Shown: positions 3,286 to 36,629, counted from the stretch's first letter. The stretch is DNA of 64,000 nucleotides from Berkelbacteria bacterium GW2011_GWE1_39_12 (GCA_001029735.1 CP011213.1:396613-460612); one strand, 5' to 3'. The notes: generated by a model from the sequence alone, not told the origin. Translations and numbers: made by a program.

Positions 3286-4083
3286 TTACAAAACCTTTTC
3301 CGCTCCAAGCCACATTAGTTCAAAAGCCATTTTTTGCATTTGAGCGATATTAACATCTTCAATCAACAAGCCAAACAAACCGCTTTTATAGGTTGTGATA
3401 ATAACCTTATTGCCATAAATATGAACATCGGCCGAAAAATTATAATCGTCTTTAGGAACTAATCTTATTTCTCTAAGTTCTGTTTTGGCTTTGTCATGCC
3501 ACTCTTCTGATTCACGAGAAACTAAGGCAATTATTCGGGTTTTAATTCCTGCATCGATTCTTCTTTTAATATAATCGTCAACCCATTCTTTATCTAAATA
3601 CTGATACAGATTGATGATTGAGGTGTAATTTAAAATGTCCTTGCCTTCACGAATCGTGTCTTCATACATCTGTTTGATTTCTTCCGGACCTTGATAGAAA
3701 TAAACCTTCGGTCGTTCTTCCTGTGAATTAAATAAACTCATAAGCTGCGGCAAAGCTTCGGCAAAACGCTTTTCGCGTTCTTTTATCAAAGTAACTACGG
3801 TTTTTGGACTCTCCGCTAAATAAAAATACTTTTTACCCACTTTTGCTCTTTTTATTAATCCCTTGTTTTCTAAAGCGGGAATAATTTCATAAACAGTAGA
3901 GCGCTTCACTTTTGAATGTTTGGCGATTTCTAAAATTGTAGTTTTACCTAACTCTAAAGCCGCCAAATAAACATCGGCTTCTTTGTCATCTAGACCAGCT
4001 TCAATTAATAAATTGTTTAATTTTGTGCTTTGCATAAGATTTCCTGTTTTGTCGATTTTGTCGACATTATTTATATCTATCAT
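3286..4083 (-). CDS. TrmB-like winged-helix transcriptional regulator (paralog 1 of 4)
   Basis: N-terminal wHTH motif LIEAGLDDKEADVYLAALELGKTTILEIAKHSKVKRSTVYEIIPALENKGL. It is paralogous to the ORFs at 5382, 12742 and 56154. Confidence 0.55.
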   Translation of the reverse strand: MIDINNVDKIDKTGNLMQSTKLNNLLIEAGLDDKEADVYLAALELGKTTILEIAKHSKVKRSTVYEIIPALENKGLIKRAKVGKKYFYLAESPKTVVTLIKEREKRFAEALPQLMSLFNSQEERPKVYFYQGPEEIKQMYEDTIREGKDILNYTSIINLYQYLDKEWVDDYIKRRIDAGIKTRIIALVSRESEEWHDKAKTELREIRLVPKDDYNFSADVHIYGNKVIITTYKSGLFGLLIEDVNIAQMQKMAFELMWLGAEKVL

Positions 4084-4126
4084 ATATTATTATCTTTAAT
4101 TTGTCAACATATTAGTGTCGAAATAC

Positions 4127-4160
4127 TTGACAAAATCTTAATTATGTGCTACAATATGTT
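4127..4160 (+). promoter_or_regulatory. sigma70-like promoter (TTGACA-17-TACAAT) for the 4291 gene
   Basis: ttgacaaaatcttaattatgtgctacaat, followed by a leader of about 130 nt that contains GAACCTTAA motifs. Confidence 0.45.
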
Positions 4161-4290
4161 GTTACAAGATAAGGAAAGCAGACATGAACCTTAACAACTT
4201 GGTTTCAACCTCCTGAAGAACTCCATAAGGAGAGCTTTAGGAGAGTTGAACCTTAAAACGCCATTTTAGCCAGAAAAAGGAGAAAAAACA

Positions 4291-4698
4291 ATGAAAATCA
4301 TGAATCGCTTCACTTCTGCAGTAAATGTAGACTACACTCTTTCAGTTAAGGAAATGGGTAATCGGGTTGGTCTTCTTCTGGACACCATATTCGACAAAGA
4401 CGTTGACCTTGATGAGGTCGTGGTATCTGGCGATGAAAATGTCGAGATTGTCCTGATTGAAAATGAGATCGGGATGTCAACCTTTGAAATTCTGGATGAC
4501 ATTGATTCCTTGGGATATAGGGCCGCAAACATCATGGAAATGATGGCCTATGTTCTTAAAACTGATGAAGAATTCGTCGTTGCCTTGGGCACAGAGATTA
4601 ACGGTAAGTTCGGTATTTACTGGGATGATCACGCAACATTGGGTAACGCCGGTTTAAGTGGTTGGAAACGCTTTTACTTCGCAGCTGTTAAGAAATAG
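4291..4698 (+). CDS. hypothetical small acidic protein (divergent from TrmB-like paralog 1)
   Basis: A 135-aa ORF with RBS aaaaaggagaaaaaacaATG, a strong upstream promoter and a downstream terminator. Confidence 0.5.
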   Translation: MKIMNRFTSAVNVDYTLSVKEMGNRVGLLLDTIFDKDVDLDEVVVSGDENVEIVLIENEIGMSTFEILDDIDSLGYRAANIMEMMAYVLKTDEEFVVALGTEINGKFGIYWDDHATLGNAGLSGWKRFYFAAVKK

Positions 4699-5381: not shown

Positions 5382-6152
5382 TTATTTTTCGGGAATTTCC
5401 CAAAGTAAATTAAATCGAGATCTTTCTTCATCAGCTAAGGTTGAGTTCTCTATAACAGTCGCAAACGGCTCTTTTTCGCTATGCGCTATATAGGCAATTG
5501 ATTTACCAAAAATATTAACTTCGGTTTTTTGTTTGAATTTTTCTATCGGTAAGAATCTAGTTTCTCTTAACTCGGCATCGTCTCGCTCAACTATTTTTCT
5601 ATTATCCAAAGTATCTGGCAAAATAGCCCTTACTTTTATTTTCTTTTTAACCCTAGCTTTCAGATAATCTGCAATGAATTCCTGATAGGAAGTTTCCACT
5701 GCTACATTACCGTAAATTAAGATTTCTTCTTCTTTGCCCAAATCTAAGGTTAAATTATAAACCTCTACTACACCGGCTTTTCCCTCGTAAAGACGAACGT
5801 CTGGCTTAAACGATGATTTACTAGCCAATCCTTCTAGTTGATTTAGGGTTTTTGCGAGTTTTTCCTGTCGTCGATTAAATGCGGATAATAACTGCTTAGG
5901 TGACGAAACTGTATAAATGTGCCTTTTTCCGTCAAAAGTACTACTGGCATACCCTTTAAACATCAAATTATTCATTAGCACATAACAGGTTGGGCGCTTA
6001 ATGGCGCTTTTTATGGCAATATCCCAGATAGAGCTCGGCCCTAATTCAAGAGCAGCCAAATAAACCTGAGCCTCATTTTCATGAAGACCAACCCCCTCTA
6101 AACTTGATAAAATGTCGTCATTTGTTGTTGTCATAATTATTAACACTATCAT
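5382..6152 (-). CDS. TrmB-like winged-helix transcriptional regulator (paralog 2)
   Basis: N-terminal motif LSSLEGVGLHENEAQVYLAALELGPSSIWDIAIKSAIKRPTCYVLMNNLMFKG. The true start is probably the MTTTNDD methionine. Confidence 0.55.
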   Translation of the reverse strand: MIVLIIMTTTNDDILSSLEGVGLHENEAQVYLAALELGPSSIWDIAIKSAIKRPTCYVLMNNLMFKGYASSTFDGKRHIYTVSSPKQLLSAFNRRQEKLAKTLNQLEGLASKSSFKPDVRLYEGKAGVVEVYNLTLDLGKEEEILIYGNVAVETSYQEFIADYLKARVKKKIKVRAILPDTLDNRKIVERDDAELRETRFLPIEKFKQKTEVNIFGKSIAYIAHSEKEPFATVIENSTLADEERSRFNLLWEIPEK

Positions 6153-6353
6153 ATCATATTGACGATATTATGTCAATTTATACCATATATTTTCAATATA
6201 TCGCTATGATAATTAGAGTCATAACTATTGACAATTAGGCCAATTAGTGGTACAATAGCATGTTAGAAAGATGAGGAATCTGCTAACAGGTTAGAATCTG
6301 AACCTTAATAATCTAAAGGTGGCACCGATCCTTAACGTGGTGCGCGGAAAATA

Positions 6354-6776
6354 ATGAGTTTAATAAGCGAGTACGATGAGTTAGTTACAGGCAAAACGAT
6401 TTCTGTTGAATTAGAAAATAGCTCGTCAAGTGACAAAAAAACTATCAATGTCCATGTCGGAATTTACCGACCAAGCTGGCCGTACGGTGGCTTTTACAAG
6501 CAATACAGAAGATACCCCCATTGCACCGAGTATATCCTTTTTCGAATCTTCATTAAGATCGAAGATAACGTCTGGAGTGATGATTTATTTCCGACTGGCG
6601 GGGTCAAGCATGATCCTAAAAAAACTGCTGCCGAAAATTGGGTATCACAAGAAGAAGTATTAAATCAAGCAAGAGACAGGATGAATGAGATTGCGCAAAG
6701 TATACGTCAGGAGATTTCTCGTCTGTATATTGACGGCACCCCTCTTGTTAAATGGTTGCAAGAGAGACCTGAGTGA
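6354..6776 (+). CDS. hypothetical protein (first of two tandem genes with a repeated leader element)
   Basis: A 140-aa ORF. It is preceded by promoter ttgacaattaggccaattagtggtacaat and the leader element AGGTGGCACCGATCCTTAACGTGGTGCG. Confidence 0.4.
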   Translation: MSLISEYDELVTGKTISVELENSSSSDKKTINVHVGIYRPSWPYGGFYKQYRRYPHCTEYILFRIFIKIEDNVWSDDLFPTGGVKHDPKKTAAENWVSQEEVLNQARDRMNEIAQSIRQEISRLYIDGTPLVKWLQERPE

Positions 6777-6917
6777 AAGTTATAAGTGTATCGAATTATC
6801 GGGTTAGCCAATTCGGCTAGCCCCTCTTTCCCTGATCGGATTGCCGATTAGAAACGAGAGAATTGCACACCAAAATTTATAGGTGGCACCGATCCTTAAC
6901 GTGGTGCGTGGAGAAAG

Positions 6918-7199
6918 TTGCGAATACAAGAAAAACCGATCGGCACGTTCAAAGTAAAAAGATGTGCGTATATCGAGTATGGTGTGGAAATCCCTGGAGT
7001 GATACCAGGAACTGTAACAAGCGATGGTAATTTAGGAGTCACATTAGAAGGCTTTACTTTTTCTGAAAAATCCTCTGGTCACGATGATCCAAACGGTTAT
7101 TGGGTAGTATCTGGGTTTTCACCTGACAATACGAGTTGTGTGGCAAGTACTTTCGGCGACGAAAGGAAAATCCATCTATATGGATTAGAAAAAATATAG
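6918..7199 (+). CDS. hypothetical protein (second tandem gene, TTG start, same leader element)
   Basis: A 93-aa ORF. The same 28-nt element is repeated at 6883-6910 immediately upstream. A terminator follows. Confidence 0.35.
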   Translation: MRIQEKPIGTFKVKRCAYIEYGVEIPGVIPGTVTSDGNLGVTLEGFTFSEKSSGHDDPNGYWVVSGFSPDNTSCVASTFGDERKIHLYGLEKI

Positions 7200-7248: not shown

Positions 7249-7253
7249 AAAAC

Positions 7254-7284
7254 AAGATTGCTTCGCTTACGCTCGCAATGACAA
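7254..7284 (+). repeat. palindromic element family A, half copy (AGATTGCTTCGCTTACGCTCGCAATGAC)
   Basis: It shares the right arm of the family-A element. Intergenic. Confidence 0.6.
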
Positions 7285-7419: not shown

Positions 7420-8811
7420 ATGAAAACCTTAGACGAGAAAGAAACTTGGCAAGCGGCGCTCGGCGAACTGGAAGTGGTTTTTTCCAAGGCTAATTATTCA
7501 ACTTGGTTTAAAGACACTTTCGTTTTAGAAATCGCTGAAGATGAGATTACGGTCGGCGTACCAAATGCCTTCACTAAAGAATGGTTGGAAAATAAATACC
7601 ACCCGCAGATTTTTGAAGTCTTAAAAAAGATTCACCCCAATTTGAAAAACGCGACTTATGCCGTCGCCACTAATTCCGCCCGGCAAGCGCCTAAAATCGA
7701 TAGTGCAGACAATTCAGATATTAATCTAAAACCGACACAAAGTTATACTCCGACTCAAATCCCTGTTGCCGACAAACCTCAACCCGCTTTCAATCTTAAT
7801 GCGCATTACTCTTTTGATAATTATGTCGTCGGTAATTCAAACCGTTTAGCCATGGCCACCGCTCAAGCGGTTGCCGCCAACCCGGGCACTGCCTATAATC
7901 CCCTGTTTATTTATGGCGGCGTCGGTTTGGGTAAAACCCATTTGGTTCAAGCCATCGGTAATGAAATTATTGCTAAAAGTCCTAAGAAGAAAATTGTTTA
8001 TGTTTCCTGTGAGAAGTTTACCAATGATTTTATTGCTTCGATATCGGATAAAAAAACGAATGAATTTAAGAAGATGTATCGCGATGCCGACGTTTTAATG
8101 GTTGATGATATCCAATTTATGGCTGGAAAAGAAGGGACTCAGGAAGAATTCTTCCATACTTTCAATGCGCTTCACCAAGCCAATCGGCAAATTGTTATAA
8201 CCAGCGATCGCGTGCCGAAAGCCATCCCGCAGCTCACTGACCGCCTTTCCTCGCGTTTTGGCATGGGAATGGTCGCAGATATCCAACCGCCTAATTTAGA
8301 GATGCGTCAGGCGATTTTAAGAAACAAATGTGCAGAAAAGCAGTGCAGTTTAACCGACGACGTAATCGATTATATCGCTCAAAATATTGAATCCAATATC
8401 CGTGAACTCGAAGGCGCGATTACCAGAATTCTTACTTATTCTCAGATGAACGATGTTTTACCTTCACTCGCCATAACCACTAAGGCCTTAGAAGATATTA
8501 TTTCCAATAAAAATAAAATTATTTCTGTGGAAAAGATGTTGCAGATGACAGCTGATTTTTTCAATATCACCACTGTCGATCTTATTTCCGCTAAAAGAAA
8601 TAAAGAATTAGTGAGACCCCGCCAGATTGTAATGTATTTAATGCGCCATGAAATGAGCCTTTCTTATCCTAAAATTGGCCAACATCTAAACAAGAAAGAC
8701 CATACGACAGTTATACACGGCGTGGAAAAAATCGAAAAAGAAATTGCACGCGATGTGGAATTGCATAAAGAGCTGACGGCATTAAAAGAAAAAATGCACG
8801 CATTCAATTAA
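7420..8811 (+). CDS. dnaA: chromosomal replication initiator protein DnaA
   Basis: A 463-aa protein with Walker A GGVGLGKTHL, an AAA+ domain and C-terminal DNA-binding domain IV. RBS aaggag upstream. Confidence 0.95.
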   Translation: MKTLDEKETWQAALGELEVVFSKANYSTWFKDTFVLEIAEDEITVGVPNAFTKEWLENKYHPQIFEVLKKIHPNLKNATYAVATNSARQAPKIDSADNSDINLKPTQSYTPTQIPVADKPQPAFNLNAHYSFDNYVVGNSNRLAMATAQAVAANPGTAYNPLFIYGGVGLGKTHLVQAIGNEIIAKSPKKKIVYVSCEKFTNDFIASISDKKTNEFKKMYRDADVLMVDDIQFMAGKEGTQEEFFHTFNALHQANRQIVITSDRVPKAIPQLTDRLSSRFGMGMVADIQPPNLEMRQAILRNKCAEKQCSLTDDVIDYIAQNIESNIRELEGAITRILTYSQMNDVLPSLAITTKALEDIISNKNKIISVEKMLQMTADFFNITTVDLISAKRNKELVRPRQIVMYLMRHEMSLSYPKIGQHLNKKDHTTVIHGVEKIEKEIARDVELHKELTALKEKMHAFN

Positions 8812-9110: not shown

Positions 9111-10217
9111 ATGATAGTTTCATGTACACAAGAGAATTTAGCTAAAGGATTAGGTTTAGTTGGACGATCAGTCGGAACGAGAACGACTTTACCGGTTTTA
9201 AATAATATTTTAATCAAAACAGAAAAAGGCCGGCTTAAACTTTCAGCCACAGACTTGGAAATTGGGATTCATACGTGGGTTGGCGCCAAGGTTGATGAAG
9301 AAGGAGCTCTGACAATTCCGGCCAAACTTCTATTGGATTATATTAATACCAATAATGATAAGACAATCGATTTTTCTGCCAAAGATTTAACTTTGCATTT
9401 AAAGTCGGAGCATTATAAGGCAAACATTAAAGGTATAGATGCGGCTGAATTCCCTCTTATTCCTGAAGTTAAGAAAGCGGAAAGCTTGGAAATTCCGGTA
9501 GCCAGCTTTTTAAACGCCATCACAAAAACTCTAATTTCGACGGCTTTAGATGAAAGTCGCCCGGTACTTGCCGGAGTCTTCTTTAAGGCCAAAGGTAACA
9601 CACTGAAAATGGTTGCGACTGATTCTTATCGCCTTTCAGAGCAAACAGTTATTTTAAATAAGAAGATTGATAATGAAGTTGTATTTATTGTGCCACAAAA
9701 AACTTTGGCTGAAGTTGGTAGAATTCTATCCAATGCCGGTGAAGTAGTTATAGTTTCTGCCGGGGAAAACCAGGTTGAGTTTAAATTAGGCGAAACAATT
9801 CTAGTTTCACGTTTAATCGAAGGTACTTTCCCTGATTATGAACAAATTATTCCAAAAACAGTGAAGACAACTGTAGTTGTGAAAGCCTCATTATTTTCTA
9901 ATGCGATTAAAATGGCGTCATTATTTGCCAGAGAATCTGCCAACAACATCAAGTTAAAAATTGAAGCACCAGACAAAGTTTCCGTTTTAGCTGTCTCCCC
10001 TCATTTGGGTGATAATACTTCAGAAATAACCGGTCAAGTTAGTGGCGAAGGAATTGAAATAGCATTCAATGCTAAATTTTTAAGCGATGTTTTAGCGGTG
10101 ATAAATTCGGAAAACGTTAAGTTGGAACTATCGTCAAACTTAGCAGCTGGATTGATTAAGGCTGAAAAAGACAATAACTTTCTCTATGTGATCATGCCGT
10201 TAAGAGTTGATGAATAA
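9111..10217 (+). CDS. dnaN: DNA polymerase III beta sliding clamp
   Basis: A 368-aa three-domain clamp in the conserved position after dnaA. Confidence 0.9.
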   Translation: MIVSCTQENLAKGLGLVGRSVGTRTTLPVLNNILIKTEKGRLKLSATDLEIGIHTWVGAKVDEEGALTIPAKLLLDYINTNNDKTIDFSAKDLTLHLKSEHYKANIKGIDAAEFPLIPEVKKAESLEIPVASFLNAITKTLISTALDESRPVLAGVFFKAKGNTLKMVATDSYRLSEQTVILNKKIDNEVVFIVPQKTLAEVGRILSNAGEVVIVSAGENQVEFKLGETILVSRLIEGTFPDYEQIIPKTVKTTVVVKASLFSNAIKMASLFARESANNIKLKIEAPDKVSVLAVSPHLGDNTSEITGQVSGEGIEIAFNAKFLSDVLAVINSENVKLELSSNLAAGLIKAEKDNNFLYVIMPLRVDE

Positions 10218-10349: not shown

Positions 10350-11420
10350 ATGAAAATTACCTCTCTTAAACTCGAAAACTTTCGTTCTTGGCCAGAATAT
10401 CATTTAGATCTTACTGATATTACTATTTTAATTGGTAAAAATGGCGTTGGTAAAACTAATGTCTTGGAGAGTCTATGGTTTTTAAGTAGTTCACGTTCTT
10501 GGCGGACTCGAGAAGAAATAGAATTGGTGAATTGGGGTAAAGAATATACCAGAATATCAGCCAAGATTGAGGTCGAAAATACACCTCATGATTTGGAACT
10601 ATTTTTTTCTAAAGGTTCACCTAATGTAAAGCCGGGCAAGCAACTAAAAATAGACGGTGTTAAAAAACGCCTGATTGAAATTGTCGGCGGCTTGCCTTCA
10701 GTCTTGTTTAGCCCAGAGACAATCGATTTGGTTTCCGGCGCGCCTGGCGCGAGAAGAAAATTCTTAGATATTCTCCTTTCGCAAACCGACAGACACTACG
10801 TCTTGGACTTAATAGAGTACGGCAAGGTTACCAAAGAGAGAAATAAGTTATTATTGCGGTTGAAAATGAAACGGGCGAAGCCCGATGAATTGGATTTTTG
10901 GGACAAAAAATTAGTTGAACTAGGCACCAGAATAATTAAACAAAGGTTAGAAGCAATTAAGTTTTTTAATAAGTATTTGAGTGAAACTTATCATAAGATT
11001 GCTAATAGCGACGAAGAATTAAAAATAAAATATCACCCGTCGGTTGACGAGGATCGCTTTATGGATATATTGGTCGCCGGTCGTGAAAGAGATATAGAAC
11101 AGAGCGCCACCAATTACGGGCCGCATCGAGATGACTTTGGCGTTTATTTGGGCGGGCGTAATATCGCCTCTTTCGGTTCACGCGGTGAATATAGATCAGT
11201 GGTTTTATCTTTAAAGATTTTAGAGCTCAAGTTTTTAGAAGAAAAAAGGGGTGAAAAACCCATTTTATTATTAGATGATATTTTTTCCGAACTCGATTCT
11301 GAACGCCGGATGCATTTAGCAAAGATTGTTCAGGATCAACAGACGATTATAACGACAACAGATATCGATCATATCGAAAAATCTTTGCGGACTAAGGCCA
11401 AGATTGTGGATATAAAGTAA
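10350..11420 (+). CDS. recF: DNA replication and repair protein RecF
   Basis: A 356-aa protein with Walker A GKNGVGKTN and the SMC-like signature LSGGE-like region (GGRNIASFGSRGE). Conserved position after dnaN. Confidence 0.9.
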   Translation: MKITSLKLENFRSWPEYHLDLTDITILIGKNGVGKTNVLESLWFLSSSRSWRTREEIELVNWGKEYTRISAKIEVENTPHDLELFFSKGSPNVKPGKQLKIDGVKKRLIEIVGGLPSVLFSPETIDLVSGAPGARRKFLDILLSQTDRHYVLDLIEYGKVTKERNKLLLRLKMKRAKPDELDFWDKKLVELGTRIIKQRLEAIKFFNKYLSETYHKIANSDEELKIKYHPSVDEDRFMDILVAGRERDIEQSATNYGPHRDDFGVYLGGRNIASFGSRGEYRSVVLSLKILELKFLEEKRGEKPILLLDDIFSELDSERRMHLAKIVQDQQTIITTTDIDHIEKSLRTKAKIVDIK

Positions 11421-11459
11421 ACAAAAAACCTGAAAGAATAAATCTCTCAGGTAATACGC

Positions 11460-11963
11460 TTAGCCGCTTTTTGCGGATTTATCGTCGAATATAAACATCT
11501 GACAACTTGGGTAATCAGATTTGTTTTCGATGGGAATTTCCGTGATGGAGCAGATTACTCTCTCTATTTCATCTTCGTTATCTATCTCCAGTTTGCCCAA
11601 GGTGATATCCTGAACCACTGGCCATCGATTGGTAAACAAAAGGCCGAGTTTGTCAGGGTTTTCTTCGGTGTGAGCGAGAAACTTGTGAACGCAGAAAACG
11701 TCGATAAGTTGCATAATTCGGTCGTCATCTTCGTAAGGACAAGTGCGGATATAGACCGTCTTAAGCAAACCGCTATCTCGCAGTTGTTTTAGATAAAAAG
11801 GATTTTTTCTCCAGCGACGAAAATGACGACTCTTGTGCGTGTCGCGATCGACCAGCTCTATTTGGAATGTCTTGTTTGTATCTGATTCATCAATACGTGG
11901 AGCAAAAAAGAAACACCCGATCTTTCTAAGCCAGCAAAACATCTTCAAATCCCCCTCCCTCAA
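11460..11963 (-). CDS. hypothetical protein (island gene)
   Basis: A 167-aa ORF. The likely start is the MFCWLRK methionine. The leader contains an AATCCTAGATAGATT motif. Confidence 0.35.
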   Translation of the reverse strand: MREGDLKMFCWLRKIGCFFFAPRIDESDTNKTFQIELVDRDTHKSRHFRRWRKNPFYLKQLRDSGLLKTVYIRTCPYEDDDRIMQLIDVFCVHKFLAHTEENPDKLGLLFTNRWPVVQDITLGKLEIDNEDEIERVICSITEIPIENKSDYPSCQMFIFDDKSAKSG

Positions 11964-12134
11964 AATCTATCTAGGATTATATATTATTTTGGCTGCCTGG
12001 TCAATCATGGTTGACTTCAATTATATTTTTATTTATAATCTGCTCAATTGGTGGCAATAGCGTCACCGACTCGGAAGGCTAATGGTGGCCCCGAGATTTT
12101 GCTCTAATAGCGGAGCAGAAGGATGGTTTAACAA

Positions 12135-12707
12135 ATGGGAAAAGCGACAGAAATGGATATTGTGGTTCAGCTTTTTGATAGGGTAAACAGTCATTTGATT
12201 GTCCCTAAAATCATGGATTTACGACGAGCTCTTAAGTTCTGTGATAAGGAAATTTCTCAGACCACTCTTGAGAAAATGATCGACAGTCTGATCTCAGAAA
12301 ATGTAATTTCTGGAAGAGATTTTGGTTTAGAGTTGAGGTCATACAGTATTCATGCTCATGCTGAGAATTCTGATCTGTGTGAAGATAAATTCGGACAACT
12401 TGTTAAGGCTTATGCCAAATGGCTTCATAGCCATACACAAGAATCTCATTCCGAAGAAACGTCTATGAAGCTCCTGATGTTGGCTATCTGGATTTACGAT
12501 CAGATTTCAAATGATGATGCTGGCATGGTGAATGAAATTCTGCGTAATCTTGTACCTAAACTTCATAGGACTGCTGTTGATCAAGTCTATCTAGATCTGA
12601 CAAAAAAGAATCATCCCGCGGCAGTTCCAATCGCCGAGGGTCTGGTGAAACTTATAGGCGTCAATAATTTGTTGACATCTCATTATGAGAAGAACTGTCC
12701 GTGCTAG
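12135..12707 (+). CDS. hypothetical protein (island gene)
   Basis: A 190-aa ORF with no recognisable domain. Confidence 0.35.
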   Translation: MGKATEMDIVVQLFDRVNSHLIVPKIMDLRRALKFCDKEISQTTLEKMIDSLISENVISGRDFGLELRSYSIHAHAENSDLCEDKFGQLVKAYAKWLHSHTQESHSEETSMKLLMLAIWIYDQISNDDAGMVNEILRNLVPKLHRTAVDQVYLDLTKKNHPAAVPIAEGLVKLIGVNNLLTSHYEKNCPC

Positions 12708-12741
12708 TGAATATCCCGCATCGAACTTTGTTGCGGGATTT

Positions 12742-13509
12742 TTAAATCTCTTCTTTCGATACCTTCCAAAGCTGTTCGAACCAGTTGCGCATGGATGTCG
12801 CGTATTCTTTGGAAGTGATAACAGTACCGAAGGACTCTTGGCTAGTGGTTATAATGGCGACATTGTCCTGATAGATCACAATATGAGCTGGACAGTCAAA
12901 ATCTTTGGGTGCAAATCTGTAAGTTCGGAAATCTTTTGGTTTAGGTTTGTTTATCTCGCCTTCTACTTCCCATTCCTTAACTCTAATTGAGCGAGATGGT
13001 ATTTTTTTATTTATGCGTTTTTCGATCCATTTTCTTAAATATTCTTCGCCGAAAACATCAGATATAGTGTTGGTATTGGCAACATACCAAATATTGTCTT
13101 TTTTTTCGTCAATTTCGAGCATTTCTTCGTAAATTAGCTTTATATCCTCACCTTTAAAGAAACGAACGTTGGGTTGGAAAGGCGAAATTTTATATTGCCG
13201 ATCGAGTTCTGGCAGATTCTTTTTTAATTCATCAATACTTTCATCGATATTCGCTTTTTCATTATTTAAAAGTGTAATTACTGTTCTAATGGGACGGGCT
13301 TGATAGCTTCGTCGAGTTTGATTGTCATTAATATTAATCAAGTTTTTCTCTCTTAAGCGTTCCAAAATATAAAAAACCGTCGTTCGCGGTAATTTAAGCT
13401 TACTGGCAACCGGCACGATGTGCGACTCGCCTATCTCTAAAAGGGCGAGATAGGCCTCGATTTCCTTATCTGAAAGGTTAAGTTGTTTTAGATAATTTCT
13501 GATGTCCAC
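12742..13509 (-). CDS. TrmB-like winged-helix transcriptional regulator (paralog 3)
   Basis: N-terminal motif LKQLNLSDKEIEAYLALLEIGESHIVPVASKLKLPRTTVFYILERLREKNLI. Confidence 0.55.
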   Translation of the reverse strand: MDIRNYLKQLNLSDKEIEAYLALLEIGESHIVPVASKLKLPRTTVFYILERLREKNLININDNQTRRSYQARPIRTVITLLNNEKANIDESIDELKKNLPELDRQYKISPFQPNVRFFKGEDIKLIYEEMLEIDEKKDNIWYVANTNTISDVFGEEYLRKWIEKRINKKIPSRSIRVKEWEVEGEINKPKPKDFRTYRFAPKDFDCPAHIVIYQDNVAIITTSQESFGTVITSKEYATSMRNWFEQLWKVSKEEI

Positions 13510-13598
13510 AATACTCCTAAACGTCTAAATGATTCGTCGACACTTATACTATACCACTATCTTATTAACAAGTAAATAGATATATAACGTCTAAAAGA

Positions 13599-13633
13599 CT
13601 TGACATTTGGGCTCGGTTGTGATACAATATCAT
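13599..13633 (+). promoter_or_regulatory. sigma70-like promoter (TTGACA-18-TACAAT) for the small-protein array
   Basis: cttgacatttgggctcggttgtgatacaat, with a leader of about 140 nt containing the CCTGTTTAACAGG palindrome. Confidence 0.45.
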
Positions 13634-13776
13634 GTAAAGAAAATTAGTTAAACCAGTTAATCAGGTTCACCAGACAGCCGGCACCTTAACAATTTGTTCA
13701 ACCTTCTGCCTACCTGTTTAACAGGTTGGTAGAAGAGTTGGATATAAAAAACACCAGTTAAAGGAGAATAAATCAG

Positions 13777-14139
13777 ATGATTCAGATAATCAAGATTAAC
13801 AAGGATTATGGCATCGTATGTTTTCCAGGTGAGACTTTCGAGGATTTCTATGCAATCAATACCCGTTTGAGTGCCGAGGGTTTTGGTCAAGATAAACGAA
13901 CATCCTATTCGGATTTCGGCGCCATACGGAAATATTACAGTTTTAATCGATTTAGATTCCGACAGCTTCTCGAGACTAGTAACCTGAAATGGGCGTGCGC
14001 ATCGAGTTTAGATGCAATCTGGCACTGGCATGGCGATGGACCCTTATGTATAAATCGCTACAGCCACGAAATCGGTAACTTCGAGCACGGGGTTTATGAT
14101 AGCTTCGGTGATCATAATGGCTTTCTTGTCCGACTCTAG
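13777..14139 (+). CDS. small protein family member 1 (VVWFP...RLTAEGFG...GFLVRL family)
   Basis: A 120-aa ORF. It is paralogous to the two following ORFs, with a shared N-terminal motif and the C-terminus GFLVRL. Confidence 0.5.
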   Translation: MIQIIKINKDYGIVCFPGETFEDFYAINTRLSAEGFGQDKRTSYSDFGAIRKYYSFNRFRFRQLLETSNLKWACASSLDAIWHWHGDGPLCINRYSHEIGNFEHGVYDSFGDHNGFLVRL

Positions 14140-14258
14140 ATCTTTATGATCTTTCGCCCGCCGCTTTTATGGCGTCGGGCGCTTCCTTCTGGATATCTAT
14201 CTAGGTATTCAGAAGAGTTGAAAAAACATTTCACTTTCAGAAAAGGAGAAAAATTCAG

Positions 14259-14618
14259 ATGATGAACGCTGTTGAAATGCAAATTGGTGAAAAGAAATAT
14301 GCGGTCGTTTGGTTCCCCGATGAGAAGATCGAGAACTTCTTGGCTGCCGATGTACGTCTTACCGCAGAAGGTTTCGATCCCGAACAGCGGGTCGGAGAAG
14401 ACGAAGTGGATGACGATATCCTTGAATCAGAGTCGTTTTGGGAACATAGCAGCGAGATTCCAGACGTTGTTTCAGCCAGCAAAACTGAAGAATTCTGTGG
14501 TTTTGAATTCGTGCACGGAGTAGCGCTTCATTGCTTCCCATATTTGGAATCATTTAGGACTTTCAGTCCGTCCGAAATTTACGATAAGGCGGAAATTTGT
14601 TACATTGTCCGGTTCTAG
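14259..14618 (+). CDS. small protein family member 2
   Basis: A 119-aa ORF containing YAVVWFPDEKIENF..RLTAEGFD. It is preceded by the conserved leader CGGGCGCTTCCTTCTGGATATCTATCTAGGTATTCAGAAGAGTTGAAAAAA. Confidence 0.5.
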   Translation: MMNAVEMQIGEKKYAVVWFPDEKIENFLAADVRLTAEGFDPEQRVGEDEVDDDILESESFWEHSSEIPDVVSASKTEEFCGFEFVHGVALHCFPYLESFRTFSPSEIYDKAEICYIVRF

Positions 14619-14726
14619 ACCTTATGGTCTCTCGCCCGTTCCTTCGTGGCACGGGCGCTTCCTTCTGAATATCTATCTAGGTATTTAGAAGAGTTGAAAA
14701 AATACATCGTATAGGAGAGTGTTCAG

Positions 14727-15071
14727 ATGGAGATGATAAAGCTTAACGATCAGTACGCGGTAGTCTGGTTCCCTAGAGAGTCATTCTACACACTCAAGTG
14801 TGTTGTAGTACGCCTGACTGCTGAAGGCCTTGGGCTAGAACAACTTACAGCTGTACCAGATTTGAATATCCTTAGGTCGTATTCTGACGACATTTGGCAG
14901 AAGTACCAGAAAGGCGAAGCTCCGGCTTCAATTTTCGCCACTACTATGCAAGGTAAAAAACGCCCCTATTGCACACCCTTTGTAAATGTTCACCCACAAC
15001 GTCGCAGGGTAAATACAAACTGGCTGACGATGCGCTTCAATGATTGCTGCGGCTTTCTTGTCCGGCTTTAA
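14727..15071 (+). CDS. small protein family member 3
   Basis: A 114-aa ORF containing YAVVWFPRESF..RLTAEGLG...GFLVRL. The same leader is repeated at 14650-14700. Confidence 0.5.
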   Translation: MEMIKLNDQYAVVWFPRESFYTLKCVVVRLTAEGLGLEQLTAVPDLNILRSYSDDIWQKYQKGEAPASIFATTMQGKKRPYCTPFVNVHPQRRRVNTNWLTMRFNDCCGFLVRL

Positions 15072-15087
15072 GTCGGCACAAACTTTT

Positions 15088-15117
15088 CCCCAGGTTAAAA
15101 CCTGGGGATTTTTTTAT
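15088..15117 (+). terminator. rho-independent terminator
   Basis: Hairpin ccccaggttAAAacctgggg followed by ATTTTTTT. Confidence 0.65.
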
Positions 15118-15230
15118 CTCATAAAGAGGCTTGACTAAAATCCCTTTAACTGGGATAATAGGCTGTCTTAAGTGAAAGAGATAAAGGGGGTGGGGACATA
15201 AAACAGTGCGACTTTCCTGGTTGCGTAAAG

Positions 15231-15986
15231 ATGATCGACGAACGAGCCAAGATGTGTGTGGATCATCAGTTGCTTTTACGCGACTACGATGAATTAGATC
15301 GGAACTTTATTCTTGAACATCTCAGGGGTTGTCACTACAGAACGTTAGCTACCTTTCTCGGGAAATCTCGGCAAACTTTTTGGGAGTATATTACAGTTGG
15401 TCGTCTCAAGACGATCGAGCCGGGATCTTTCATCGTTAGACCTGATTCGATGCTTTGGGCAATTGACTTGGTAAGAAACTGGGTTTGTGTCGACCGCAAG
15501 TTGATGGCGCTTACCGAGTACAAGAAGTATGAAGCCTTTTTGAAACTTGTTCGTGATGAAAAGTTTGGCGAGACTCGAGAATATCTCAACGGCTCGCTTG
15601 CTATTCATAAATCTCAGATTTCACTGATTGCTGAGAGGTGTCGGAAGATTCGTCTTGCCAATTCAAATAACAATGGTATGACAACGAAGAAGTATTTGCG
15701 CAAAGGCGAGATGAGTCCGCCGATGGCAGCGAAGAAGCTGCGCTGTTTGGAGAAAGAGATTCGTCACTGGATGAAAACAGGAGATCTTAAGTACTCCAGG
15801 CGCGGAGAAGGCAATATCAAGTGGCATATTATCAGGCAAAACGATTTCTGGTTGTTTGTGAAACTTGTTGCTGACGGAACAAAGAAAGACGCCTCGACAG
15901 AATTTATCGATCAGTGCAGGCGTGCTTACAAAGATTATCAAATCAGCATTCCTAACGTCATAAAGATGGTTATGAAAAAGAGCTAG
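15231..15986 (+). CDS. hypothetical protein with C-terminal excisionase/MerR-like HTH
   Basis: A 251-aa ORF. The C-terminal segment MTTKKYLRKGEMSPPMAAKKLRCLEKEIRHWMKTGDLKYSRRGEGNIKW resembles the HTH_17 excisionase-type DNA-binding domain. Confidence 0.35.
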   Translation: MIDERAKMCVDHQLLLRDYDELDRNFILEHLRGCHYRTLATFLGKSRQTFWEYITVGRLKTIEPGSFIVRPDSMLWAIDLVRNWVCVDRKLMALTEYKKYEAFLKLVRDEKFGETREYLNGSLAIHKSQISLIAERCRKIRLANSNNNGMTTKKYLRKGEMSPPMAAKKLRCLEKEIRHWMKTGDLKYSRRGEGNIKWHIIRQNDFWLFVKLVADGTKKDASTEFIDQCRRAYKDYQISIPNVIKMVMKKS

Positions 15987-15987
15987 G

Positions 15988-16017
15988 CTCCGAATCAATA
16001 TGGTTCGGAGTTTTTTA
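15988..16017 (+). terminator. rho-independent terminator
   Basis: Hairpin ctccgaatcaatatggttcggag followed by TTTTTTATTT. Confidence 0.6.
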
Positions 16018-16034
16018 TTTATATAAGGTTTGTT

Positions 16035-16316
16035 ATGATGGCAGCGATGGATCATATCAATAAACATTTCGACCACATACCCAAATATTTCAGGCTCCAA
16101 AAACCGCTGCAAGCGGCCGATGTTTGTGGTAAGGCGCGTGAACTAGCCGATGGTCAATACGACGTAATCTCATTCAATGACGGGCTTCTGACGCTTAGCA
16201 CTACGTCATCAGCTGCCGCTTCTAATTTAAGAATGAAAACTTTTGAAATACAAAATGAAATCAACGAAAAATTAGGCAAAGAACTCGTTAAAAAAGTGAG
16301 AATTAAGATACAATAG
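16035..16316 (+). CDS. DUF721/DciA-like protein (dnaA-recF neighbourhood protein)
   Basis: A 93-aa ORF with a motif resembling DUF721 proteins that normally follow recF. Here it is separated from recF by a 4.6-kb insertion. Confidence 0.45.
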   Translation: MMAAMDHINKHFDHIPKYFRLQKPLQAADVCGKARELADGQYDVISFNDGLLTLSTTSSAAASNLRMKTFEIQNEINEKLGKELVKKVRIKIQ

Positions 16317-16321
16317 TCCTT

Positions 16322-16378
16322 AAAGTCGAAAGTTCATAAAGTCGAAAGTCGAAAGTCGAAAGTCGAAAGTCGAAAGTC
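16322..16378. repeat. tandem heptamer repeat (GTCGAAA)x5 with flanking AAAGTC motifs
   Basis: aaagtcgaaagttcataaagtcgaaagtcgaaagtcgaaagtcgaaagtcgaaagtc. Confidence 0.8.
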
Positions 16379-16480
16379 TATCAAGTTTATAAGCGAAGCT
16401 TGCAAAGCCAAATGCTTTATAAAGTCTTGATTAAACCAGAAAGAATCTTAGAAATTTCAATAGATTTATTATAGATTAAA

Positions 16481-16762
16481 TCAAACTCTTTTTTTATCTA
16501 TATACTTTAGTTCAAGCGCTAAATATAACATCGATCTTACTTCACCGCACGATCCTTTAGAAATATATAAAAACTTTTTAAACTCTTTATCTCCCATTCG
16601 TTCATAGCCTTCGGCAATATTATTCATAACAGAAACACTGGCCCTGTTAATTTGGTCTTTGAATGAATAGTCCTTAATACAGCTAAAATTTCTATAACTT
16701 AGTAATGTTAATTCTTTTGCTTTTTGCCAAGCAATTATATCTTCAAACTTTTCTATCTTCAT
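16481..16762 (-). CDS. four-helix-bundle protein (23S rRNA intervening-sequence protein family)
   Basis: A 93-aa ORF with IAEGYER...DKEFKKFLYISKGSCGEVRS, typical of the TIGR02436 family. Confidence 0.65.
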   Translation of the reverse strand: MKIEKFEDIIAWQKAKELTLLSYRNFSCIKDYSFKDQINRASVSVMNNIAEGYERMGDKEFKKFLYISKGSCGEVRSMLYLALELKYIDKKRV

Positions 16763-25728: not shown

Positions 25729-28006
<2,278 letters not shown>

Positions 28007-30207: not shown

Positions 30208-30321
30208 TTTACTCCTAGTTTATAAAGTCAAAAGTCCTTAAAGTCTGTAAAGTACATGGAAACTTTTGATAGTAAAACACCTCGTACTTTAAAAACTTTA
30301 TAGACTTTATGACTATTTAAG

Positions 30322-32610: not shown

Positions 32611-32861
32611 AAGATATTCAAAAGTCCATAAAGTTAAAGGCGAAAAGTTTAGAAAAGAAAAAATAAAAGGCTGATTTGACAGTCTTTTTAATTTTCCAGC
32701 CCAAATATATCACAACTGAAAAAAAGATCAACCCTACCATTTTTTTGTGCACGGTTAGAATAGTCGTAAAGTTCATAAAGTCATAAAGTTATAAAGTCGG
32801 AAGCCCCCAGGAAAAAATCTTGCCTTACAGACTTTAAAGACTTGATAGACTTTAGACTAAT

Positions 32862-36540: not shown

Positions 36541-36629
36541 GCAAAGCTTGATTTCTGAAGAAATTAAAGGGAAAAATATGGCTAAACATGAGTTTAGCGC
36601 GGAATTTTCTGAAAATACAGAGGAGAAAT

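What the first reader, a model, noticed from the sequence alone, without database searches (positions are those of the whole stretch)
11460..16030. 4.6-kb accessory island splitting recF from the DUF721 gene, with a triplicated small-protein family and a recurring ATCTATCTAGG operator-like motif
The conserved dnaA-dnaN-recF-DUF721 neighbourhood is interrupted by seven genes. These are two unknowns transcribed divergently from each other; a TrmB-like regulator transcribed divergently from three tandem paralogues (N-terminal motif YAVVWFP.E.F..RL(S/T)AEG(F/L)G, C-terminus GFLVRL), each with its own conserved leader (CGGGCGCTTCCTTCTG.ATATCTATCTAGGTATT.AGAAGAGTTGAAAAAA); and a protein with an excisionase-type HTH. 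The ATCTATCTAGG motif also occurs, in reverse orientation, in the leader of the 11460..11963 gene. The family has no recognisable domain. Triplication with conserved regulatory DNA suggests diversifying selection, for example an immunity, adhesin or anti-defence type cargo.
Basis: partly seen in the sequence, partly recalled or inferred. Interest (0 to 1): 0.7.

Follow-up and report, generated by a model that had tools for sequence, protein, structure and literature searches.

The report
Triplicated lectin-fold variable-protein genes, retroelement absent
Three tandem small genes beside the replication genes of a Berkelbacteria genome belong to a rare family of lectin-fold binding proteins that a retroelement (DGR) hypermutates in related uncultured bacteria; here no retroelement lies within 64 kb, a TrmB-type regulator sits next to them, and the proposed 'operator' motif is the tip of a conserved RNA hairpin.

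Summary
The seven-gene insert between recF and dciA is real, and so are the three paralogues (13777-14139, 14259-14618, 14727-15071).

- **Family.** No domain library recognises the paralogues. Only about 14 clusters of relatives exist among billions of proteins. Two AlphaFold models give a C-type-lectin (CLec) fold.
- **DGR link.** In at least four metagenomic loci a longer homologue is a true diversity-generating-retroelement target. Its last ~43 codons (ending GFLVxC) repeat a template region and differ from it only at template adenines, with Avd nearby and, where the contig reaches far enough, the reverse transcriptase. Paralogue 3's C-terminus matches those template-encoded peptides at 17 of 29 residues.
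- **This window.** It holds no RT, Avd or template, and the genes are identical in seven other assemblies. I read them as retroelement-less copies diversified by duplication.
- **Conserved module.** The divergent TrmB partner recurs in six other loci, always next to dnaA/recF. One relative (L067) has the orthologous TrmB (84% identical) at the same site. So part of the "island" is conserved core inside a variable hotspot.
- **The motif.** ATCTATCTAGG is the apex of a 13-14 bp RNA hairpin that keeps its pairing through compensatory and wobble changes while the 11-mer itself is lost. The third copy could be chance (P about 0.16).

This is a new member of a known kind, of moderate interest.

The parts
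11460..11942 (-). ORF160, unknown protein with its own promoter and terminator; variable cargo of the locus
   Evidence: ORF list. No hit in Pfam, PHROGs, PADLOC or NCBIfam. No counterpart in L067 or L002. Terminator-like site 11452-11428.
11965..11975 (+). Third exact copy of ATCTATCTAGG. It abuts the -10 hexamer of the ORF160 promoter (TTGACC-17-TATAAT, 12004..11976 on the minus strand).
   Evidence: Chance expectation P = 0.16 for the island and 0.025 for intergenic DNA only. Function not shown.
12135..12707 (+). ORF190, unknown protein with its own promoter (12011-12039); variable cargo
   Evidence: No counterpart in related loci.
12742..13509 (-). TrmB-family winged-helix regulator (255 aa), divergent partner of the paralogue operon
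   Evidence: PF01978 E = 1.1e-12, 48.1 bits against a cut-off of 25.6. 84% identical orthologue at the same locus in L067. Same 255-aa divergent partner in L001, L056, L065, L066 and L068.
13521..13595 (+). Two ACGTCTAAA boxes (13521-13529, 13587-13595) in the divergent promoter region. The second abuts the -35 hexamer. Candidate TrmB operator (inferred).
   Evidence: These are the only two copies in 64 kb. Both are conserved in L067.
13600..13628 (+). Sigma-70-type promoter of the three-gene operon (TTGACA-17-TACAAT with TG)
   Evidence: Conserved in L067, L001 and the paralogous cassettes.
13697..13748 (+). Leader hairpin B' in the 5' UTR of paralogue 1: same stem base (CCUUCUG...AGAAGAGUUGGA), different apex, no ATCTATCTAGG
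   Evidence: RNA fold z = -4.2. Covariation. Covariance model R1 scores 72.5 bits.
13777..14139 (+). Paralogue 1 (120 aa), CLec-fold family member. The segment equivalent to a DGR variable region (VR) is about 14026-14139.
14155..14181 (+). GC-rich hairpin A, 16 nt after the paralogue 1 stop codon. The same element is the intrinsic terminator in single-copy loci; here the U-tract is replaced by CUUCCUUCUG.
   Evidence: 92.9% of cells paired, 3 compensatory pairs.
14186..14215 (+). Hairpin B, copy 2: 13-bp stem with loop AUCU. ATCTATCTAGG (14195-14205) forms its apex.
   Evidence: (I1).
14259..14618 (+). Paralogue 2 (119 aa), the most divergent copy (C-terminus CYIVRF). VR-equivalent segment about 14496-14618.
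14633..14657 (+). GC-rich hairpin A, second copy
14662..14691 (+). Hairpin B, copy 3; its apex holds ATCTATCTAGG (14671-14681)
14727..15071 (+). Paralogue 3 (114 aa). Its C-terminus PFVNVHPQRRRVNTNWLTMRFNDCCGFLV matches DGR template-encoded peptides of homologues. VR-equivalent segment about 14955-15071.
15087..15108 (+). Intrinsic terminator of the operon
15231..15986 (+). 251-aa protein with weak HTH_17/excisionase-like helix-turn-helix; own promoter (15131-15159) and terminator (15985-16013); variable cargo
   Evidence: No counterpart in L067 or L002.
10350..11420 (+). recF, left flank
   Evidence: 64% identical to L067 RecF and 58% to L002 RecF.
16035..16316 (+). DciA (DUF721), right flank
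   Evidence: PF05258 E = 7.1e-8. The L002 orthologue is 52% identical and inverted.

Best explanation
The core of the locus is a regulatory cassette. A TrmB-family repressor or activator is transcribed divergently from one sigma-70-type promoter. That promoter drives a three-cistron operon of small (114-120 aa) proteins with no signal peptide, each essentially one C-type-lectin-fold (CLec) domain.

The family is a rare lineage, apparently of candidate-phyla-radiation (CPR) bacteria. Its longer members are the variable proteins of diversity-generating retroelements (DGRs). In those members the last ~43 codons, ending in the GFLVxC strand, are rewritten from a template repeat by adenine-specific mutagenesis.

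In this genome the three copies have no retroelement or template within 64 kb. They differ most in the middle and the VR-equivalent C-terminal third, and they are invariant between assemblies. Their diversity was therefore most likely produced by tandem duplication and divergence, possibly after an ancestral DGR phase, and is now fixed. I infer that they act as three ligand-binding modules of different specificity; the ligand is unknown.

Each cistron is preceded by a conserved RNA hairpin (B). Cistrons 1 and 2 are followed by a GC hairpin (A), which is the terminator in single-copy loci. I infer that these elements set transcript processing, stability or read-through between cistrons. ATCTATCTAGG is only the apex of hairpin B.

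The other three genes (ORF160, ORF190, the HTH protein) are lineage-specific cargo of a variable hotspot downstream of recF.

**Shown:** homology, fold prediction, DGR targeting of homologues, the synteny of TrmB with family members, hairpin covariation, and absence of RT, Avd and template from the window.
**Inferred:** loss or absence of a DGR genome-wide, ligand binding, TrmB control, and the role of the hairpins.
For: **Family and fold**
- A profile search of 1.84 billion representatives finds only 12 clusters. A word-index search adds P0013 and P0014.
- There are no Pfam or PDB sequence hits.
- AF2 of paralogue 3 gives pLDDT 75.5, and AF2 of P0014 gives pLDDT 90.3 and pTM 0.87.

**DGR link**
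- In L054 the gene end 10369-10501 repeats 10905-11037. Of 24 mismatches, 22 sit at template adenines and the other two lie at the stop codon. bAvd and RVT_1 are adjacent.
- A matching template plus Avd also occurs in L073 (0 non-A of 20 mismatches), L076 (0 of 17) and L069 (5 of 14). L071 has RT and Avd.
- Paralogue 3 matches the template-encoded peptides at 17 of 29 residues.

**No retroelement here**
- tblastn with RT and Avd, and an adenine-tolerant template scan of all 64 kb, find nothing.
- The three VR-equivalents share only 0-13% identity, so one template could not serve them all.
- The locus is 99.8-100% identical in seven other assemblies.

**TrmB module**
- A divergent TrmB partner is present in the window, L001, L056, L065, L066, L067 and L068.
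- TrmB is 84% identical between the window and L067, while the adjacent family member is only 33% identical over its length.

**Hairpins**
- Hairpin B: 14 pairs, 97% of cells paired, 4 pairs changed on both sides, slid controls 31-51%.
- Hairpin A: 93% paired, 3 compensatory pairs.
- Several pairs are G-U, which would be mismatches in duplex DNA or on the opposite strand.
Against: - Only 64 kb of a roughly 915-kb genome could be read, so a DGR elsewhere is not excluded. RTs of the same clade exist in another Berkelbacteria genome (P0030).
- One scaffold (L060) has an N-gap exactly inside the VR-equivalent of paralogue 1 (14102-14108). Population heterogeneity could cause this.
- All DGR-linked homologues are the long form (about 165 aa). 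None of the short, TrmB-linked forms has been seen with a DGR. The short forms may therefore never have been DGR targets.
- Regulation by TrmB, ligand binding and the hairpin functions are untested inferences.
- The near-identical sequence (not only the pairing) of hairpin B between the window and L067 would also fit a sequence-specific protein binding site.
Confidence: 0.6

Rival explanations
1. The three genes, or one of them, are active targets of a DGR encoded elsewhere in the same genome and are still being hypermutated in trans.
For: - Homologues are genuine DGR targets.
- The C-terminal GGCTTTCTTGTCCG stretch is identical in paralogues 1 and 3. GC-rich hairpins follow the stop codons, as the inverted repeat (proposed cruciform) follows known VRs (PMC5758913).
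- There is an N-gap in scaffold L060 inside the VR-equivalent of paralogue 1.
- A CPR-clade DGR RT occurs in another Berkelbacteria genome.
- A 23S-rRNA-IVP protein, of the same four-helix-bundle type as Avd, lies at 16481-16762.
Against: - There is no RT, Avd or template in 64 kb.
- The three VR-equivalents are mutually unalignable, so they would need three templates.
- The sequences are identical in seven assemblies.
- No RT from the 915-kb contig appears among the best 120 RT homologues.
- CPR DGRs are reported to tend towards a single target, and remote targets were found only in another lineage.
Confidence: 0.15
2. Hairpin B and ATCTATCTAGG form a palindromic DNA operator bound by the TrmB paralogue or by the 251-aa HTH protein. 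It would co-regulate ORF160 and the paralogues.
For: - The element is a 30-bp near-palindrome (I1).
- Its sequence, not only its pairing, is almost identical between the window and L067.
- A third exact 11-mer abuts the -10 hexamer of the ORF160 promoter, with P = 0.025 if only intergenic DNA is considered.
- Similar leader hairpins precede other genes that are divergent from TrmB paralogues.
Against: - The 11-mer is absent from leader 1 and is interrupted by a 3-nt loop insertion in L067, while the stem is kept.
- Stem changes pass through G-U pairs and one C-G to A-U swap. This fits RNA on the sense strand, not duplex DNA.
- Copies 2 and 3 lie between cistrons, far from any promoter.
- Across the whole island the third copy has P = 0.16.
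- TrmB paralogues only 25-35% identical to each other would not be expected to share one operator.
Confidence: 0.15
3. The whole 4.6-kb block is a remnant of a mobile element (prophage or integrative island) that brought an excisionase-like gene and anti-defence or immunity cargo.
For: - The 251-aa protein gives weak excisionase, HTH_17 and mad1 hits.
- The equivalent gap in L002 carries RhuM/Fic and PycTM-like genes, and L067 carries a nucleotidyltransferase of the AbiEii type.
- GC content is slightly higher (0.44-0.45 against 0.36-0.39) over 14000-16000.
- An imperfect 28-nt direct repeat (75% identical) sits at 11359-11386 and 16042-16069 (D5).
Against: - There is no integrase, tRNA, phage structural gene or PHROG hit.
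- A viral-contig scan with the family found nothing.
- The TrmB-family pair is vertically conserved next to the replication genes in several genomes.
- The 28-nt repeat lies inside the recF and dciA coding sequences and is weak.
Confidence: 0.07
4. The short TrmB-linked proteins share only an ancestral fold with the DGR targets. They would have a different, non-binding role, for example a small regulatory or toxin/immunity protein acting with TrmB.
For: - Every short-form locus lacks a DGR and every DGR-linked member is a long form.
- TrmB-plus-structured-leader cassettes in the same genome drive unrelated small ORFans.
- Paralogue 2 has lost the GFLV end.
Against: - Profile E-values link the short and long forms (1e-12 to 1e-5; 1e-34 to 1e-37).
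- L056 carries a long form with a TrmB partner.
- Paralogue 3 keeps the scaffold of the template-encoded peptide, including AAY-coded Asn residues.
- There are no toxin, antitoxin or defence hits.
Confidence: 0.1

Closest known systems
DGR variable proteins with C-type-lectin fold (Bordetella phage Mtd, Treponema TvpA, Nanoarchaeota AvpA, Thermus TaqVP)
   Same: Predicted CLec fold. The variable segment lies at the extreme C-terminus and ends in a conserved strand. Homologues have a TR/VR pair with adenine-only mismatches plus Avd and RT. The template is rich in AAY codons.
   Different: The window proteins are only 114-120 aa, a bare CLec domain with no N-terminal partner domain and no signal peptide. 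They have no cognate template, RT or Avd in 64 kb, occur as three ancient, mutually dissimilar tandem copies, and are paired with a TrmB regulator.
CPR-specific DGRs (clade 2 of Roux et al. 2021, PMC8144416; 'CPR set' and unknown VR classes UVR1-6 of Wu et al. 2018, PMC5758913)
   Same: The L054 RT's best named relatives come from Berkelbacteria, Moranbacteria and Parcubacteria. The targets lack any recognisable transmembrane or other conserved domain, as those papers report for CPR targets.
   Different: I could not check whether this family equals one of the published UVR or protein-cluster classes, because no supplements are held. Those surveys start from RT-linked targets and would not list retroelement-less, TrmB-linked copies like these.
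TrmB-family transcriptional regulators (PF01978)
   Same: The N-terminal winged helix scores above the Pfam cut-off. The gene is divergent from its likely target, with repeated boxes over the promoter.
   Different: No sugar-binding TrmB C-terminal domain was detected. The NCBIfam TrmBL1 equivalog scores 31 bits against a cut-off of 650. The 255-aa architecture forms multiple paralogous cassettes in this lineage.
Intercistronic and 5'-UTR stabiliser or processing hairpins of polycistronic mRNAs, and leaky intrinsic terminators (general knowledge, not tested here)
   Same: A stable stem-loop lies upstream of each cistron and a GC stem-loop follows cistrons 1 and 2. The GC stem-loop is a canonical terminator, with a U-tract, in single-copy loci.
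   Different: The sequence is conserved far beyond what pairing needs. The same leader architecture recurs in paralogous TrmB cassettes. There is no Rfam match.
DGR-diversified cytoplasmic CLec 'antigen sensor' domains of conflict systems in multicellular bacteria (PMC10907252)
   Same: A CLec variable domain, apparently cytoplasmic, that could sense foreign molecules.
   Different: There is no fused STAND NTPase or effector domain and no PADLOC hit for the paralogues. The resemblance is a lead only.

Membership tests
DGR variable protein (active target of a diversity-generating retroelement) | C-type-lectin (or Ig) fold carrying the variable residues | tested here: met
DGR variable protein (active target of a diversity-generating retroelement) | Variable region with a cognate template repeat that differs only at template adenines | tested here: not met
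   An adenine-tolerant scan of the whole 64-kb window gives no candidate; the best has at least 22 non-A mismatches per 97 nt. The feature is met in homologues L054, L073 and L076, and largely in L069. The rest of the genome was not available.
DGR variable protein (active target of a diversity-generating retroelement) | DGR reverse transcriptase (and usually Avd) in the same genome, normally adjacent | tested here: not met
   tblastn with the L054 RT and Avd against the window gives nothing below E = 0.1. The PF05635 protein at 16481-16762 is only a distant four-helix-bundle relative of Avd: 25% identity, pairwise E = 0.001.
DGR variable protein (active target of a diversity-generating retroelement) | IMH-type GC-rich end of the VR followed by a GC-rich inverted repeat | tested here: inconclusive
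   GC hairpins lie 16 nt after the stop codons of paralogues 1 and 2 (14155-14181, 14633-14657) and are conserved with covariation. The same hairpin is an ordinary terminator in single-copy loci.
Protein family of the DGR targets P0014, P0008 and P0013 (homology, irrespective of DGR activity) | Significant profile similarity over the whole domain, including the WFxGE...RLTAEG core and the GFLV end | tested here: met
   hmmsearch E = 3e-12 to 3e-5 from the four-sequence profile to the long forms. E = 3e-37 and 7e-35 for P0013 and P0014 with the 12-sequence profile. Alignment A6.
TrmB family regulator (PF01978) | TrmB-type winged helix-turn-helix above the Pfam gathering score | tested here: met
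   48.1 bits against a cut-off of 25.6, residues 7-72.
TrmB family regulator (PF01978) | Sugar-sensing C-terminal domain of archaeal TrmB/TrmBL1 | tested here: not met
   The NCBIfam TrmBL1 and TrmB equivalogs match only residues 3-106 and score far below their cut-offs. There is no PDB sequence hit.
Excisionase / HTH_17 (the 251-aa protein) | HTH_17 domain above the Pfam gathering score | tested here: not met
   20.4 bits against a cut-off of 27. PHROG excisionase E = 0.021. PDB Xis Gp37 E = 1.
Integrative mobile island | Integrase or recombinase, flanking att repeats, and insertion absent from close relatives | tested here: not met
   No integrase ORF. Only a weak 28-nt repeat inside coding sequence. 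The TrmB-family core is present at the same site in L067. L002 has different cargo at this site rather than an empty site.
Known RNA family (Rfam 15) | Covariance-model match at or near the gathering score | tested here: not met
   No relevant match over 11000-16500 even at E up to 10.

The most novel reading that the evidence does not exclude
The 'TrmB regulator + two-hairpin leader RNA + small fast-evolving cargo' unit may be a previously undescribed, CPR-specific expression cassette that has proliferated around the replication origin. There are at least three in this window and two in L067. Under this reading, the CLec triplet would be a germline-encoded repertoire of cytoplasmic receptors descended from DGR targets. 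It would be used to recognise host or phage molecules, and the conserved leader would be a new cis-regulatory RNA class sensed by a common factor.
Probability: 0.15. Interest if true: 0.75.

Novelty: new member of a known kind. Interest (0 to 1): 0.5.

Why it matters
- **An annotation for a 'hypothetical' family.** It gives an unannotated CPR family a concrete identity: a minimal, single-domain C-type-lectin scaffold that diversity-generating retroelements hypermutate in some genomes.
- **A natural comparison.** The same scaffold is either diversified by a retroelement or fixed as a duplicated, regulator-controlled array. This bears on an open question raised by DGR surveys: what the domain-less, apparently non-membrane targets of CPR bacteria do, and how targets persist or evolve without the retroelement.
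- **A testable regulatory element.** A well-conserved leader hairpin and a recurring TrmB-type cassette next to the replication genes could be tested as regulatory elements in organisms where almost nothing is known about gene control.

Tried and rejected
- **Domain libraries.** Pfam, PHROGs, PADLOC and NCBIfam gave no domain for the paralogues, ORF160 or ORF190. PDB sequence searches were empty.
- **Structure searches.** Foldseek against the PDB was not significant. The afdb50 library was unavailable.
- **RNA families.** Rfam gave no hit.
- **Collection scans.** A viral-contig scan with the family profile found nothing. The first metagenome scan, with the short-form profile, also found nothing. 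Profiles A6 and A4 were too degenerate for that tool.
- **Looking for this genome's own RT.** It did not appear among homologues of the L054 RT: none of the best 120 comes from the 915-kb contig. The Berkelbacteria RT locus L077 has a different target type and its contig is cut.
- **Other TrmB-cassette cargo.** hhalign of the family against ORF135, ORF140, ORF93 and the L067 168-aa protein showed no relationship.
- **Internal duplication of the 251-aa protein.** Not supported by BLASTP.
- **A hairpin in the L001 leader.** It resembles hairpin B by eye, but the covariance model did not recover it. I do not count it.
- **Each cistron having its own promoter in TTGAAAAAA.** Rejected: no -10 hexamer at a workable spacing.
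- **A foreign-DNA signature.** The GC shift is small.

Full report
**1. What is in the sequence**

The window comes from a Candidatus Berkelbacteria genome. The three small proteins are identical to the NCBI entries DD449_04185, DD449_04190 and DD449_04195, and the longest contig carrying them is 915 kb.

dnaA (7420-8811), dnaN (9111-10217) and recF (10350-11420) are followed by seven ORFs and then DciA/DUF721 (16035-16316). The seven ORFs are:

| ORF | Coordinates | Strand | Note |
|---|---|---|---|
| ORF160 | 11460-11942 | - | unknown |
| ORF190 | 12135-12707 | + | unknown |
| TrmB-family regulator | 12742-13509 | - | PF01978 E = 1.1e-12 |
| Paralogue 1 | 13777-14139 | + | 120 aa |
| Paralogue 2 | 14259-14618 | + | 119 aa |
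| Paralogue 3 | 14727-15071 | + | 114 aa |
| HTH protein | 15231-15986 | + | 251 aa; HTH_17 match below threshold |

Consensus scans give each unit a promoter and terminator:
- ORF160: TTGACC-17-TATAAT on the minus strand, 12004..11976.
- ORF190: 12011-12039.
- TrmB: 13576..13548.
- The paralogues: one promoter, TTGACA-17-TACAAT at 13600-13628, and one terminator at 15087-15108.
- The HTH gene: promoter 15131-15159 and terminator 15985-16013.

The three paralogues therefore form one operon.

The paralogues are 25-31% identical. Identity is 37-45% in the N-terminal core, 7-19% in the middle, 0-13% in the C-terminal third, and high again in the last strand, GFLVRL.

**2. The repeated DNA**

The 51-nt element (14176-14226 and 14652-14702) is 96% identical between its two copies. 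It consists of the end of a GC-rich hairpin A followed by a 13-bp hairpin B with loop AUCU. ATCTATCTAGG is the apex of hairpin B.

Leader 1 (13697-13748) has the same stem base and 3' flank (CCUUCUG...AGAAGAGUUGGA) but a different apex and no 11-mer.

The related contig L067 (DnaA 72%, DnaN 76%, RecF 64% identical) carries both leader types.
- In its internal leader the 11-mer is broken by a 3-nt loop insertion (ATCTACAAGCTAGG), while the stem is kept.
- In its first leader a C-G pair has become A-U, and three pairs change through G-U.

Pair counts over the aligned copies:

| Hairpin | Copies | Pairs | Cells paired | Pairs changed on both sides | Slid controls |
|---|---|---|---|---|---|
| B | 5 | 14 | 97% | 4 | 31-51% |
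| A | 6 | 10 | 93% | 3 | 38-57% |

The conserved feature is thus a sense-strand RNA hairpin, not the 11-mer.

The third exact 11-mer, at 11965, abuts the -10 hexamer of the ORF160 promoter. However, one such match between the leader and the rest of the island arises in 16% of resamplings, or 2.5% if only intergenic DNA is counted. I treat it as unproven.

**3. What the small proteins are**

No domain library or PDB sequence search recognises them. In 5.8 billion clustered proteins only one outside relative was found at first (P0004). An exhaustive profile search of 1.84 billion representatives found 12 clusters, and a second profile search added P0013 and P0014.

|---|---|---|---|---|

**4. 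The link to diversity-generating retroelements**

The P0014 gene (L054, a 212-kb JGI contig) lies next to bAvd and an RVT_1 reverse transcriptase. Its last 133 nt (10369-10501) repeat 10905-11037. Of 24 mismatches in 130 nt, 22 are at template adenines and the other two are at the stop codon. This is the signature of DGR adenine mutagenesis.

A metagenome scan with the long-form profile gave eight more loci. An adenine-tolerant scan, together with tblastn, gave the following:

| Locus | Non-A mismatches / total | DGR genes found |
|---|---|---|
| L073 | 0 / 20 | Avd |
| L076 | 0 / 17 | Avd |
| L069 | 5 / 14 | Avd |
| L071 | gene runs into template-like sequence (probably an assembly collapse) | RT and Avd |

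The template-encoded peptides (for example VWRNDDGNLYLPYVNVNPDNRKVNANWVENDFNDNNGFLV) are rich in AAY-coded Asn. Paralogue 3 aligns to them over PFVNVHPQRRRVNTNWLTMRFNDCCGFLV: 17 of 29 residues are identical, and 0 of 2000 shuffles score as high. So the conserved GFLV end and the hypervariable C-terminal third of the window proteins correspond to the DGR variable region of their relatives.

Published surveys describe CPR-specific DGRs whose targets lack any recognisable domain, and they predict undiscovered CLec variants there (PMC8144416; PMC5758913).

**5. Are the window genes DGR targets now?**

Evidence against:
- tblastn with the L054 RT and Avd, and the adenine-tolerant scan, find nothing in the 64 kb.
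- The three VR-equivalents cannot derive from one template.
- The locus is 99.8-100% identical in seven other assemblies of groundwater metagenomes.
- None of the short-form loci (L001, L065, L066, L067, L068), nor the TrmB-linked long form in L056, has a DGR in its flanks.
- DGR-linked loci lack TrmB and dnaA.

Caveats:
- Only 7% of the genome was visible.
- Scaffold L060 has an N-gap at 14102-14108, inside the VR-equivalent of paralogue 1.
- An RT of the same clade exists in another Berkelbacteria genome.

I put about 15% on trans-targeting by a remote DGR.

**6. Is it an accessory island?**

Only partly.

In L067 the same position downstream of recF holds the orthologous TrmB (84% identical, more conserved than DnaA). 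It is divergent from a 56-aa ORF and one family member (P0006, 33% identical over its length), with the same promoter, the same ACGTCTAAA boxes and the same leaders.

In L056, L065, L066 and L068 a second TrmB lineage is divergent from a family member between rnpA/rpmH and the DnaA boxes of oriC. This lineage is about 25% identical to the window's TrmB and 70-92% identical within itself.

In L002 (RecF 58% identical) the recF-dciA gap holds about 5.8 kb of different genes: RhuM/Fic, a PycTM-like protein and a truncated TrmB-like fragment. There dciA is inverted.

ORF160, ORF190 and the HTH protein have no counterparts in these loci.

The picture is a variable hotspot containing a conserved TrmB-CLec module whose copy number differs: one copy in L067, three here.

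**7. Mechanism proposed**

Shown:
- One promoter and one terminator.
- Conserved boxes over the -35 hexamer.
- Conserved hairpins.
- Fast divergence of the proteins next to a slowly evolving regulator.

Inferred:
- TrmB binds the ACGTCTAAA boxes (the only two copies in 64 kb) and controls the operon.
- Hairpin A, a canonical terminator in single-copy loci, has lost its U-tract inside the array and acts as an attenuator or 3' stabiliser.
- Hairpin B, about 40 nt upstream of each start codon, acts as a 5' stabiliser, a processing site or a protein-binding site.
- The three proteins are cytoplasmic ligand-binding modules of different specificity.

**8. An unexpected extension**

A covariance model of hairpin B also hits two other leaders:
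- The leader of ORF 4291-4698 (28.7 bits), which is divergent from a second TrmB paralogue (3286-4083).
- More weakly (16.7 bits), the leader of the L067 168-aa gene, which is divergent from TrmB254.

These leaders, and partly that of a third cassette (TrmB 5382-6152 with ORFs 6354-6776 and 6918-7199), share the promoter, an ACCTTAACAA box and a long hairpin with base UUCAACCU.CUG/CAG.AG.GUUGAA. Their cargo proteins are unrelated to the CLec family.

The TrmB-plus-leader unit therefore looks like a reusable cassette in this lineage.

**9. Verdict**

The operator reading is not supported. The diversification reading is supported in a specific, checkable form.

The family is a new, minimal member of the known class of CLec-fold DGR variable proteins. 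Here it occurs as a retroelement-less, regulator-linked tandem array. Interest is moderate (0.5). The most novel reading still open is a CPR-specific TrmB/leader-RNA cassette driving a germline repertoire of receptors; I give it about 15%.

Noticed in passing
window 3286-4698 and 5382-7199: There are two more 'TrmB paralogue divergent from small ORFan(s)' cassettes between rnpA and dnaA. The first is TrmB 3286-4083(-) with ORF 4291-4698. The second is TrmB 5382-6152(-) with ORFs 6354-6776 and 6918-7199. Each of those last two ORFs is preceded by a 42-nt repeat (6310-6351 and 6874-6915, 90% identical). The leaders share the promoter, an ACCTTAA(C/T)AA box (4188, 6302, 13683) and, for 4204-4256, a hairpin-B-like structure (covariance model, 28.7 bits).
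   Followed up: partly
L067 9106-9247 (minus strand): The leader of a 168-aa ORFan divergent from a second TrmB paralogue has the same promoter, ACCTTAACAA box and UUCAACCU...GUUGAA hairpin. This suggests a leader-RNA class tied to 255-aa TrmB paralogues. It is not in Rfam for the region searched.
   Followed up: partly
window 16481-16762 (minus strand): A 93-aa 23S-rRNA-intervening-sequence protein (PF05635, E = 1.9e-29) lies just after dciA. It has the same four-helix-bundle type as the DGR accessory protein Avd, but is only 25% identical to the L054 Avd, and no RT is nearby. L054 also has a PF05635 gene 1.2 kb upstream of its DGR target.
   Followed up: partly
window 16315-16400; also 30217-30250, 32618-32648, 32770-32803, 36508-36541: Short tandem AAAGTCGAAAGTC-type repeats (four 13-nt units at 16322-16378) follow dciA. 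Similar AAAGTC-rich stretches recur at several other places in the window.
   Followed up: no
window 11359-11386 and 16042-16069: An imperfect 28-nt direct repeat (75% identical) lies at the 3' end of recF and the 5' end of dciA, exactly bracketing the insert. Both copies are inside coding sequence (…DIDHIEK… and …MDHINK…). This is probably chance.
   Followed up: no
L054 10496-10560; L057 709-775; L070 and L072 after the stop codon: Long-form family genes are followed by four to five (C)TTGG(G) repeats about 10 nt apart, right after the variable region. L073 and L069 instead have a GGGCC-CUUU-GGCCC hairpin there. These may be cis elements for retrohoming.
   Followed up: no
L065 1340-1420, L066, L068, L056 1140-1337, L067 7718-7888: In single-copy loci a short ORF encoding a hydrophobic peptide (for example MIYTLIGMLIFVLLYILIFNKKTP) lies between the promoter and the family gene. 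In L067 a 56-aa ORF begins with the same MIQ.IK as the window's paralogue 1.
   Followed up: no
L002 11883-12875 and 14084-14668; L067 10633-11103: The recF-downstream hotspot of relatives carries conflict-type genes: RhuM/Fic, a Pycsar-effector-like transmembrane protein, and a DUF6036/AbiEii-like nucleotidyltransferase.
   Followed up: partly
L060 (= window 14102-14108): The ANAN16 scaffold has a run of N exactly inside the VR-equivalent segment of paralogue 1. The rest of the 6.3-kb locus differs from the window at only one base.
   Followed up: partly
window 7253-7282, 45524-45553, 48020-48049, 27365-27412, 45479-45526: Dispersed 30-48-nt repeats (…GATTGCTTCGC…GCTCGCAATGAC and GTCATTGCGAG…) form inverted pairs. 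They could be a small repeated element or structured RNA family of this genome.
   Followed up: no
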